A stretch of DNA of 59,371 nt, counting the filler, from Jimgerdemannia flammicorona (lineage: Eukaryota): NCBI GenBank assembly GCA_003990765.1. It is 3 parts of 3 records of this genome, joined end to end, with 100 filler letters (N's around TTAATTAATTAA, not from the genome) between each part and the next. Parts side by side here need not be neighbours in the genome. Positions count along the whole stretch, not along the records: positions 19,838 to 39,554 come from RBNJ01001865.1; 2 more parts are not named here. The stretch is one strand, 5' to 3'. The notes under the pieces were generated by a model. That model made no database searches, was not told the origin of the DNA, and saw only the letters and a list, made by a program, of their open reading frames with translations. This document shows, piece by piece, positions 24,365-25,450 of this stretch (its first letter is position 1; every line of letters begins with the position of its first letter). The position numbers and the translations under genes were made by a program.

Positions 24365-25201
24365 ATGCCTGCTGCCCGCCAAACCTCAAGGTCAAGAAAT
24401 TACCAAGATATCTTAGTTGAGGAAAGGATGTTCTAAGACATCAGAAGAACTATAAGGACCTGCTCAAGAAGGACTCCTAGTGTCAACCTGGGTACTGCAG
24501 ACTCTTATCACTTTATTCTCTACTGTCATGAAATGGAAACAAGGATCACTATTGCTACTGAATGCCTCCAAATGTGGCAGGAGTATGAAATAGGAAACCT
24601 CCTCTACCAGGAGTTCCCACAAGCCAGCACCCAAGAGCTACAAGATGCCACTCTCATGGATATACACGAAACAAGGACAGCTAAGAAGATCCATCAGATC
24701 TTCAGGCATGCACCATGGTTGATCCCCAACTTGGAGTATGTCAGAGTCTCAGACTTCAGAGACCTATCATCCTGCCATATCAATGCACTAGAAGCCAGGG
24801 TGGCTACAGAAGCCCAGTCCACTATCACTCTCAACAGTGAAGAAGTAGAAGACTTCTGGCACCCTATCCTTCAGGACAACTCAGACCAATTCCTGCAAGG
24901 ATTGATCTCAGTATTCCAAGGCCCAAGCATCCAGGTTAAACCTCCCCAAGACCCCACATTTGTTCCCTACTTTGTGGAAGAGAACCTCATAGACTGGAGA
25001 GCTCCAGATCTTGTTCCCGATTTTCCTGCTACAGCCGAATGTGATGACATCATCGGTGATGACGTCATCCCACATGACATACCCAAAGCACGCGAAGAAC
25101 ACGAAATGTGCGACCTGTATGATGAATTCGTAGATCTCATCTCCTTCAGTGATGATGATGATAAGGATGAAGCTCTCATGGTTCTGAACTTTCTACTCTG
25201 A
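24365..25201 (+). pseudogene. LTR(U3)-encoded accessory ORF, family A, 278 codons, one CAA->TAA stop; function unknown
   Basis: MPAARQTSRSRN... is in frame with the 222-aa ORF 24533-25201. Present in all five complete A LTRs (also 31691-32493, 36116-36937 minus, 46570-47397, 54588-55445). Confidence 0.8.
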
Positions 25202-25210
25202 GTTCTGTGT

Positions 25211-25450
25211 TATACTGGATAATGCCAGCACCAGTATTTTCATATAACACTGGATAATGCCAGCACTGGTATTCTCATGTAACACTGAATAATGCCAGCA
25301 CCAGTATTCTCATGTAACACTGGATAATGCCAGCACTGGTATTCTCATATAATACTAGATAATGCCAGTACTGGTATTCTGAGGTGACACGAAATTGTTC
25401 CAGTACCAGCATTTTGATGTAACACTAAATAATGCCAGCCCTGGAACTCA
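25211..25450. repeat. 7 x 35-bp tandem array with internal dyad, in LTR U3
   Basis: Units start at 25211, 25246, 25281, 25316, 25351, 25386 and 25421. Core AATGCCAG-CA-CTGGTATT. Only 4 units in the 3' LTR (~32503-32640). Confidence 0.92.

What the first reader, a model, noticed from the sequence alone, without database searches (positions are those of the whole stretch)
25030..25450. ORF-adjacent palindromic 35-bp array with locally surviving CpGs: candidate cis target of the LTR protein
Seen: immediately after the ORF stop lie 7 (5' LTR) or 4 (3' LTR) 35-bp units. Variants CCAG/CTGG/CCGG point to an ancestral perfect dyad AATGCCGG-CA-CCGGCATT. Residual CpGs cluster at ~25035-25130 and ~32340-32600, while the rest of the element is CpG-poor. 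Copy 2 and the solo LTR carry a different array at the same place (AATTCT..C.GGCAT.C-like units), so the array turns over faster than the ORF. Known: Arabidopsis VANDAL transposons pair a VANC anti-silencing protein with fast-evolving tandem motifs. Inference: an analogous protein-plus-array module, or simply an enhancer for a host factor such as a CGG-binding Zn2Cys6 protein.
Basis: partly seen in the sequence, partly recalled or inferred. Interest (0 to 1): 0.7.

Follow-up and report, generated by a model that had tools for sequence, protein, structure and literature searches.

The report
Retrotransposon enhancer repeats beside accessory gene
A fungal jumping gene carries, inside its long terminal repeat, an unknown gene followed by fast-changing short repeats just before its promoter; the repeats look like ordinary enhancer repeats, while the CpG-rich patch is a separate regulatory-looking module written into the end of that gene.

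Summary
The 35-bp array is real. It lies in U3 of a decayed Ty3/gypsy LTR retrotransposon, between the stop of an LTR-encoded ORF and the TATA box, and diverges about four times faster than the ORF. The perfect dyad occurs in 0 of 313 units; the left arm is fixed CCAG. The surviving CpGs lie in the ORF's acidic tail, not the array: CpG retention in copies chosen without tail or array DNA is 0.34 in the tail, 0.18 upstream and 0.19 in the array. The tail patch carries two CRE palindromes (GATGACGTCATC). A distant family, whose homologous ORF lies outside the LTR, has the same palindrome in a similar non-coding CpG cluster and no comparable array. So the patch is probably a cis-module overprinted on coding DNA. 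The ORF is under purifying selection, has its own TATA-like box, an acidic tail and a weakly helix-turn-helix-like core. Best reading: host-factor enhancer repeats plus a Tas/Tax-like activator gene of unshown target; VANC-like protection of the array is not supported. The scan had noted this ORF family before on other DNA of this genome.

The parts
24123..25751 (+). 5' LTR of a decayed Ty3/gypsy retrotransposon (copy 1), TG...CA ends
   Evidence: flanks ATAT (24119-24122) and ATAC (32958-32961) fit a 4-bp target duplication with one transition; copy 2 has CTAT on both sides
24278..24285 (+). TATA-like box 87 bp upstream of the ORF start (putative ORF promoter); an AP-1-like TGAGTCA about 40 bp further up is intact in 73 of 85 copies but changed in this LTR
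   Evidence: similar boxes before the ORF in F3 and F4; function inferred, motif name recalled
24365..25201 (+). LTR-encoded accessory ORF, 278 codons, broken here by an in-frame stop at 24434; basic N-terminus, helical core, acidic tail
   Evidence: open-frame relatives in genome and metagenomes; dN/dS 0.12-0.47
24617..24706 (+). predicted helix pair of the core that aligns weakly with ParB-type helix-turn-helix domains
   Evidence: model pLDDT 77.5; best Z 4.2 SopB, rmsd 4.2, 77 aligned; inconclusive
25018..25131 (.). CpG-dense module inside the ORF's acidic tail; about 16 ancestral CpG sites per 100 bp against 2.4 upstream; retention 1.4-1.9-fold higher
25043..25069 (.). two 12-bp CRE-type palindromes (first decayed, second intact GATGACGTCATC at 25058-25069)
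   Evidence: two sites in 84 of 95 A copies and 18 of 25 B copies; same 12-mer in non-coding U3 of family F4
25127..25147 (+). F-x-DLI-x-F motif of the acidic tail, kept in family F4
   Evidence: likeness to activation-domain motifs is recalled
25208..25445 (+). 35-bp tandem array: 5 regular units, 1 odd unit, 1 terminal half unit; invariant CCAG(C/T) core followed by a CCGG-derived tetramer; imperfect dyad (6 of 8 pairs)
25513..25547 (+). main TATA box (TGTATAAATA, 25513) and AATAAA (25542); the same TATA context occurs in families F2, F3, F4
25752..31448 (+). internal region: PBS-like site, broken gag-pol (zinc knuckle, protease, dUTPase, RT, RNase H, integrase), polypurine tract
31449..32957 (+). 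3' LTR with second ORF copy, CpG cluster 32343-32427 and array 32500-32626; tail haplotype differs from the 5' LTR by indels
35636..37197 (-). solo LTR with B-type array and a mosaic ORF core
46317..55934 (+). copy 2 (older, B-type array), 5' LTR split by an insertion at about 47504-48250
41500..43931 (+). solo LTR of family F2: homologous ORF (27% identity over 152 aa), acidic tail, different CAGC-rich array, same TATA context

Best explanation
The stretch is the U3 control region of a Ty3/gypsy LTR and holds two separate cis-modules ahead of the main TATA box. (1) The 35-bp array is an enhancer-type direct repeat built on CC(A/G)G(C/T)A modules. It gains and loses units by slippage or unequal exchange and is most likely read by host transcription factors; its invariant CCAGC core resembles Ace2/Swi5-type zinc-finger sites. 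It is methylated and deaminated like the rest of the element. (2) The CpG patch is an older CRE-containing module for host bZIP factors that, in this family, is written in frame into the variable linker of the ORF's acidic tail; bound factors or its high G+C slow CpG decay modestly. The ORF, made from its own upstream promoter, most likely encodes an acidic transcription activator of the element (works like foamy-virus Tas or deltaretrovirus Tax); which DNA it acts on is not shown. Shown: anatomy, unit variation, position and size of the CpG peak, the motif shared with F4, selection on the ORF. Inferred: all binding, enhancer activity and activator function.
For: Position between ORF stop and TATA, 70-305 bp upstream of it. 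Full units vary 2-7 among 84 arrays and differ by whole units between the two LTRs of one element in 4 of 9 pairs. No CpG sparing in the array: region effect t 1.3 against 4.5 for the tail after copy and context correction; 22/114 vs 32/175 upstream vs 53/158 tail at anchored sites in 27 copies; LTR pairs 0.26 (0.16-0.38) vs 0.19 (0.14-0.24) vs 0.30 (0.25-0.37). The F1 tail aligns to the non-coding F4 U3 cluster above shuffles (0-5 of 300 reach the score in 8 of 8 pairs), the array does not (51-300 of 300). The F4 ORF lies outside its LTR: 12 of 27 complete LTRs follow the ORF and polypurine tract, the others have other flanks; one ORF in a full element. Tail length is a multiple of three in 89 of 95 A copies over 22 lengths. 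dN/dS 0.12-0.47 in the 21 of 28 pairs where dS is not saturated. Tail 24 D/E vs 5 K/R. CRE consensus TGACGTCA and Tax-CREB action: PMC7601775; Tas internal promoter and C-terminal acidic domain: PMC517496; Ace2 site CCAGCC / ACCAGCCT: PMC1157095 (passages).
Against: No binding, methylation or expression data. The CpG count of the youngest tails (17-23) is about what random synonymous codons give for that peptide (15-22), so density alone does not need a cis function; one CRE arises from DDVI codons with chance about 1 in 16, and the two sites are a duplication. The 12-mer was found in ORF-bearing families in 30 of 34 sampled intact sites and in no other repeat family, which fits the element's own protein as well as a host factor. 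In F4 the cluster shows no retention peak (35/75 vs 24/53 and 30/60 in the same LTRs). The array core is mostly CCAGCA, not the cited CCAGCC. F2 has a CpG-poor tail and only a TGACGT half site at the LTR start. The helix-turn-helix likeness is below significance.
Confidence: 0.5

Rival explanations
1. The array is the direct, family-specific binding site of the ORF protein, which activates the main promoter (Tas/BRE-like pair) without protecting the DNA from methylation.
For: Array diverges about 4-fold faster than the ORF and array type matches ORF type in 107 of 109 LTRs. F2 pairs a 27%-identical ORF with a different array whose commonest 5-mer, CAGCA, is also among the commonest in array A. 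CAGC is strand-biased and denser between stop and TATA in F1, F2 and F4. ParB/SopB/VirB/KorB domains recur among the top fold matches, and DUF3102 proteins appear at ranks 3 and 23 in the viral library.
Against: Congruence is expected from linkage; 2 mosaics carry a B array with a partly A core. F3 and F4 show no comparable array yet keep the ORF under selection. F3 and F4 have nearly the same residues in the putative recognition helix but unlike stop-to-TATA DNA. A shared 5-mer between two repeat units has a chance of a few per cent (my estimate). Fold Z at most 4.2; no Pfam or PHROG hit; PF11300 finds nothing in the genome.
Confidence: 0.2
2. The ORF protein, alone or with a host bZIP factor as Tax does, acts at the CRE/CpG module inside its own coding tail and locally shields it from methylation; the array is secondary.
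For: The only retention peak is at this module. The module is shared by F1 and F4, whose RTs are about 40% identical. F3 has TGACATCA three times at the same place. 1178 intact 12-mers genome-wide against 1 for the reversed control, 30 of 34 sampled in ORF-bearing families. BLV Tax is reported to lower methylation at the CRE (PMC7601775, passage).
Against: The peak is small (1.4-1.9-fold) and two thirds of tail CpGs still decayed in older copies. Tail G+C is 0.55-0.61 against 0.49-0.51 core and 0.39-0.44 array, and deamination slows in G+C-rich DNA (recalled). No peak in F4. CRE is a standard host site.
Confidence: 0.13
3. VANC-like anti-silencing module: the ORF protein binds the array and strips methylation there and across the element.
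For: Tandem, non-coding, fast-diverging repeat beside an element-encoded gene with conserved and variable parts, as for VANC (PMC5735166, PMC10398659, passages). The host has two Dnmt1/Dim-2-like genes by my reading of the translations and heavy CpG decay in repeats. With all 99 copies pooled the array is slightly above upstream (0.42 vs 0.34, paired p 0.095), and p 0.018 in the set selected with array DNA.
Against: No array peak in sets chosen without array DNA (p 0.88, 0.14; p 0.93, 0.28). No DUF1985 or DUF287 hit. Acidic tail and own promoter fit an activator better. Decay after insertion of dead copies may hide protection that acted only in active copies, so this is lowered, not excluded.
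Confidence: 0.07
4. The array is a by-product of template slippage in a tolerant spacer, or acts in RNA (3' untranslated part of the ORF and genomic transcripts), with no specific DNA-binding role.
For: Unit number is unstable even within LTR pairs. Families without a comparable array were also abundant (F4: at least 118 matches). The strand folds somewhat better than shuffles (z -2.67).
Against: The CCAG core is invariant across A and B while flanks changed. At least two full units in 84 of 84 arrays, though that set was defined by having two units. Self-complementary repeats inflate folding scores. The position is the usual one for LTR enhancers (established knowledge).
Confidence: 0.1

Closest known systems
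Foamy-virus Tas/Bel1 with its response elements (PMC517496, passages)
   Same: Element-encoded protein at the 3' end, own internal promoter, C-terminal acidic region, candidate targets in the LTR.
   Different: Fungal Ty3/gypsy element without env; ORF inside U3 in most families; no sequence or fold link; binding and activation not shown.
HTLV-1/BLV Tax with 21-bp CRE repeats (PMC7601775, passages)
   Same: U3 holds TGACGTCA sites and tandem repeats; an element protein could act through host CREB/ATF factors.
   Different: Here the CREs are perfect, lie in coding sequence and are separate from the tandem array, which has no CRE.
Arabidopsis VANDAL/VANC anti-silencing (PMC5735166, PMC10398659, passages)
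   Same: Accessory gene plus fast-diverging non-coding tandem repeats.
   Different: DNA transposon versus LTR retrotransposon; no DUF1985/DUF287; the CpG-retention proxy does not peak at the array.
Additional ORFs of LTR retrotransposons (PMC7264820, first of three parts read)
   Same: Conserved sense ORF of unknown function downstream of pol; in F4 it sits exactly between pol and the 3' LTR.
   Different: In F1 and F2 the gene and its promoter are inside the LTR, so every solo LTR carries them; no env-like features were looked for or noticed.
Variable U3 enhancer repeats of LTRs, such as Tnt1 BII boxes and MLV direct repeats (recalled); ORFs in U3 such as MMTV sag and HIV nef (recalled)
   Same: Tandem units upstream of TATA that vary in number and differ between subfamilies; coding sequence overlapping U3.
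   Different: No homology; here a CRE module appears to be carried in frame within the acidic tail.

Membership tests
Ty3/gypsy LTR retrotransposon | pol order protease, RT, RNase H, integrase | tested here: met
   dUTPase between protease and RT
Ty3/gypsy LTR retrotransposon | direct LTRs with TG...CA ends, PBS, polypurine tract, short target duplication | tested here: met
   duplication 3 of 4 letters in copy 1, exact in copy 2; priming tRNA not identified
Chromovirus | chromodomain after integrase | tested here: inconclusive
   no Pfam hit in six read-through frames of 30944-31442 of a decayed copy
VANDAL/VANC system | carried by a transposase-encoding DNA transposon | tested here: not met
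   element encodes RT and integrase
VANDAL/VANC system | VANC domains DUF1985 / DUF287 | tested here: not met
   no Pfam family for the window ORF (E up to 0.1) and neither domain in 10 homologues (E up to 10)
VANDAL/VANC system | non-coding tandem repeats that diverge fast between related elements | tested here: met
   0.19 vs 0.047 transversions per site
VANDAL/VANC system | local loss of CG methylation centred on the repeats (tested by proxy: CpG retention) | tested here: not met
   array 22/114 vs upstream 32/175; proxy only, no methylome
VANDAL/VANC system | protein binds the repeat motif | not testable with these tools
   needs a binding assay
Tas-like transactivator | own promoter upstream of the gene | tested here: inconclusive
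   TATA-like box 60-90 bp before ATG in F1, F3, F4; no transcript start mapped
Tas-like transactivator | C-terminal acidic activation domain | tested here: inconclusive
   composition fits (24 D/E vs 5 K/R); activity untested
Tas-like transactivator | direct binding to LTR response elements | not testable with these tools
   needs a binding assay
Tax/TRE system | CRE consensus in U3 | tested here: met
   two sites in 84 of 95 copies
Tax/TRE system | the tandem repeats themselves contain the CRE | tested here: not met
   array units have no TGACG core
ParB-type / DUF3102 helix-turn-helix | significant fold or profile match | tested here: inconclusive
   SopB Z 4.2, rmsd 4.2, 77 aligned; VirB 3.7; ParB 3.4; DUF3102 proteins E about 1-2
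Leu3-type Zn2Cys6 site (recalled) | everted CCG-N4-CGG | tested here: not met
   left triplet never CCG in 273 regular units
Ace2/Swi5-type site | CCAGC(C) core bound by a host C2H2 factor | tested here: inconclusive
   4.4 CCAGC per array vs 0.23 shuffled, but any repeat enriches its own words; CCAGCC mainly in the terminal unit; host factor not searched

The most novel reading that the evidence does not exclude
A widespread group of fungal Ty3/gypsy elements encodes its own DNA-binding activator, distantly related to ParB/DUF3102 helix-turn-helix proteins, that travels with every solo LTR and acts on a CRE-rich CpG module written into its own coding tail and/or on the adjacent family-specific array, locally slowing methylation: a self-contained activator-plus-target cassette, the retrotransposon counterpart of Tas, Tax or VANC.
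Probability: 0.25. Interest if true: 0.8.

Novelty: new variant of a known kind. Interest (0 to 1): 0.45.

Why it matters
Variable U3 repeats are ordinary. What is less ordinary is an ancient accessory gene shared by Ty3/gypsy lineages whose RTs are only about 40% identical, which sits inside the LTR in some families and outside in another. That contrast shows a CpG-rich CRE module existing as non-coding U3 in one family and as in-frame coding DNA in another. If the protein is an activator, these would be fungal retrotransposons regulated like complex retroviruses, and thousands of solo LTRs would carry gene and targets together. The families give ready cognate and non-cognate DNA for a specificity test.

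Tried and rejected
Perfect ancestral dyad: rejected for the age range covered by subfamilies A and B. Both fixed mismatches are transitions of the kind this genome makes, so a still older perfect dyad cannot be excluded. CpG protection of the array: four analyses, none positive in sets chosen without array DNA. Selection bias: set A was picked with a query holding tail and array, set C by protein similarity (young copies); set B (R/U5 query) and partner LTRs are the fair ones. Family searches of the ORF: nothing in Pfam, PHROGs or solved-structure sequences; Atlas hits unnamed or under 0.9; first model too poor (pLDDT 51.7); no Foldseek match at E 0.001 for the second; no VANC, Tas or Tax chain among the listed fold matches, which excludes nothing. 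P0012 in the profile search is a repeat protein and was left out. Metagenome scan gave 2 loci, 1 useful. LTR pairs: 20 partner stretches asked, 13 returned, 7 usable, plus 2 pairs already held; 3 of the 9 have tail indels and 2 look chimeric. My unit counter was noisy, so unit differences were read from alignment gaps. F1 U3a against DNA upstream of the F4 ORF: the comparison picked a wrong anchor and is void. Expression: no RNA holder listed; contigs of two runs guessed to be RNA hold 85-99% relatives of the LTR with other sequence at the array, but their depth cannot rank genes. Literature: searches listed no paper on a fungal LTR-internal accessory ORF or this array; the library lacks most subscription papers, and no supplements were opened. 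The assembly has 35,354 contigs, so some unit numbers and chimeric pairs may be assembly errors.

Full report
Setting. The window holds intron-containing host genes with normal CpG content up to about 18 kb, among them a sterol methyltransferase, then decayed repeats with almost no CpG. The genome G000 is 231 Mb in 35,354 contigs and is probably fungal. The finding lies in the 5' LTR (24123-25751) of a Ty3/gypsy element with zinc knuckle, protease, dUTPase, RT, RNase H and integrase, a 3' LTR at 31449-32957 and a 4-bp target duplication. U3 holds, in order: a TATA-like box (24278), a sense ORF of 278 codons (24365-25201, broken here at 24434), the array (25208-25445), the main TATA box (25513) and AATAAA (25542).

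The array. It has 6.5 and 3.6 units in the two LTRs. In 84 arrays from genomic copies there are 2-7 full units, and whole units differ between the two LTRs of one element in 4 of 9 pairs. The proposed perfect dyad was found in 0 of 313 full units. The left tetramer is CCAG (304) or CTAG (9); only the right one shows CpG decay, CCGG 141, CTGG 104, CCAG 52. Position counts on 273 regular units give 6 of 8 complementary pairs and two fixed mismatches. The older B subfamily keeps the CCAG core in its first unit (16 of 16) but not the right arm, so the conserved thing is a CC(A/G)G(C/T)A module, not the dyad. Turnover is fast: 0.19 transversions per site between A and B arrays against 0.047 in the ORF core. 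ORF type and array type agree in 107 of 109 LTRs, as linkage predicts; the two mosaics include the window's solo LTR.

The CpGs. The cluster is real (9 in 114 bp, p 3e-8) but lies in the ORF's acidic tail; the 5' array has one CpG. Most of the effect is ancestral density: about 16 CpG sites per 100 bp in the tail, 2.4 upstream, 3.3 in the array. Retention per site is also higher in the tail and not in the array. In copies found with a CpG-free R/U5 query, the tail beat upstream in 18 of 20 copies (0.31 vs 0.19, p 0.0005) and the array in 9 of 20 (0.21, p 0.88). With copy and flanking-base terms the tail effect is +0.16 (t 4.5), the array +0.07 (t 1.3). At anchored sites without alignment: upstream 32/175, tail 53/158, array 22/114 in 27 copies. 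In nine LTR pairs, which record only changes after insertion: 0.19, 0.30, 0.26 with a wide interval for the array. Against this, the set selected with array DNA shows array above upstream (p 0.018) and all 99 copies pooled give p 0.095. The tail is G+C-richer (0.55-0.61 vs 0.49-0.51), which could slow deamination by itself (recalled).

What the patch is. The tail CpGs sit in two copies of the palindrome GATGACGTCATC (two sites in 84 of 95 A and 18 of 25 B copies) and in ACGCGA boxes. Its core is the CRE consensus (PMC7601775, passages). Profile search found more distant homologues, and one of them led to family F4 in this genome. In F4 the ORF stops just before the polypurine tract; the 785-bp LTR starts after it (12 of 27 complete LTRs follow the ORF, the rest have other flanks; one ORF per full element). 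The non-coding start of F4's U3 is a CpG cluster (9.4 per 100 bp vs 0.8-2.3 elsewhere) with the same 12-mer followed by GCGCGACATA. F1 tails align to it above dinucleotide shuffles in 8 of 8 pairs (0-5 of 300), while the F1 array does not. In the protein, F1's patch is extra length between the conserved core and an F-x-DLI-x-F motif that F4 also has. Tail length stays in frame in 89 of 95 copies over 22 lengths. The simplest reading is a cis-module carried in frame in a tolerant linker. Limits: the tail's CpG number is near what random codons give for that peptide; F4 shows no retention peak at its cluster; F3 has TGACATCA instead; F2 has only a half site at the LTR start. The 12-mer occurs 1178 times in the genome against 1 for the reversed control; 30 of 34 sampled sites are F1 or F4, 4 are in host-like DNA, so host factor and element protein cannot be told apart this way.

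The protein. Open-frame copies are common, homologues occur in metagenomes, and dN/dS is 0.12-0.47 where measurable. It is about as diverged between families (30-40%) as RT is (39-41%), so it is old. It has no Pfam, PHROG or PDB sequence match. The core model (pLDDT 77.5) matches ParB-type helix-turn-helix domains best (SopB Z 4.2, VirB 3.7, ParB 3.4) and DUF3102 proteins weakly; I had guessed DUF3102 from the motif beforehand, but the scores are below significance and PF11300 finds nothing in the genome. A basic N-terminus, an acidic tail and a TATA-like box before the ATG in F1, F3 and F4 recall foamy-virus Tas, which has an internal promoter and a C-terminal acidic domain (PMC517496, passages).

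Is the array its target? F2 pairs a homologue with a different CAGC-rich array, which fits. F3 and F4 keep the gene with no comparable array by eye, and share nearly the same putative recognition-helix residues despite unlike U3 DNA, which does not fit. VANC-induced CG loss follows the bound motifs (PMC5735166 and PMC10398659, passages); the retention proxy shows nothing at the array. The CCAGC core resembles the Ace2 site of fission yeast (PMC1157095, passages), a lead only.

Verdict. Array and CpG cluster are real but separate. The array is most likely an ordinary, unstable U3 enhancer repeat (0.5 for the whole best reading); direct target of the ORF protein 0.2; protein acting at the CRE module 0.13; by-product or RNA element 0.1; VANC-like 0.07. 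The system works like an aORF-bearing LTR element with a possible Tas/Tax-type activator and is not a member of the VANC, Tas or Tax families. Earlier notes of this scan describe the same ORF family on other pieces of this genome; they agree but are not independent support, and a word search found no note on the CRE module. Papers: passages of PMC5735166, PMC10398659, PMC4862756, PMC1157095, PMC517496, PMC7601775 and PMC3248453; the first third of PMC7264820; others as search listings only. Searches listed no description of this gene or array. Tnt1, MLV, MMTV sag, nef, Leu3, AP-1 and the G+C effect on deamination are recalled.

Noticed in passing
window 19840-21300: Another decayed element with a Cys-rich reading frame (19876), an acidic repeat frame (20305-20814) and a 33-bp tandem array (21002-21279): the same order of gene, acidic tail and array.
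   Followed up: no
window 41500-43931 and 37873-39554: Family F2 LTRs (about 2.4 kb) with a homologous ORF, a modular CAGC-rich array and CpG-rich tandem repeats after the TATA box; the first is a solo LTR with a CTAT target duplication.
   Followed up: partly
L275 (G000:C3060), L181-L235: Family F4: homologous ORF just before the polypurine tract, outside a 785-bp LTR whose U3 opens with a CpG cluster holding a CRE palindrome, TCACGTGA and ACGCGGAAAA; no dUTPase hit.
   Followed up: yes
window 27729-28973: dUTPase between protease and RT in this family; not detected in full F2 and F4 elements.
   Followed up: partly
nine LTR pairs: C-to-T differences by next base: CG 0.72, CA 0.21, CC 0.14, CT 0.03; about 95% of LTR-pair differences are transitions, so LTR divergence overstates age.
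   Followed up: partly
window 25090-25105 and 25387-25395: ACGCGAA(A)-type boxes in the tail and in the odd array unit resemble SBF/MBF/E2F sites (PMC4862756, passages).
   Followed up: partly
window 47504-48250, 40274-40842, 58185-58751: G+C-rich insertions; one splits the array of copy 2's 5' LTR.
   Followed up: no
window 9057-17820: Large sacsin-domain genes, one ending in a BTB domain; host region 1-18 kb has CpG o/e near 1, against near 0 in the repeats beyond.
   Followed up: no
window 24123-25751 vs 31449-32957: The two LTRs of copy 1 carry different tail haplotypes, suggesting recombination between two elements or an assembly chimera.
   Followed up: partly
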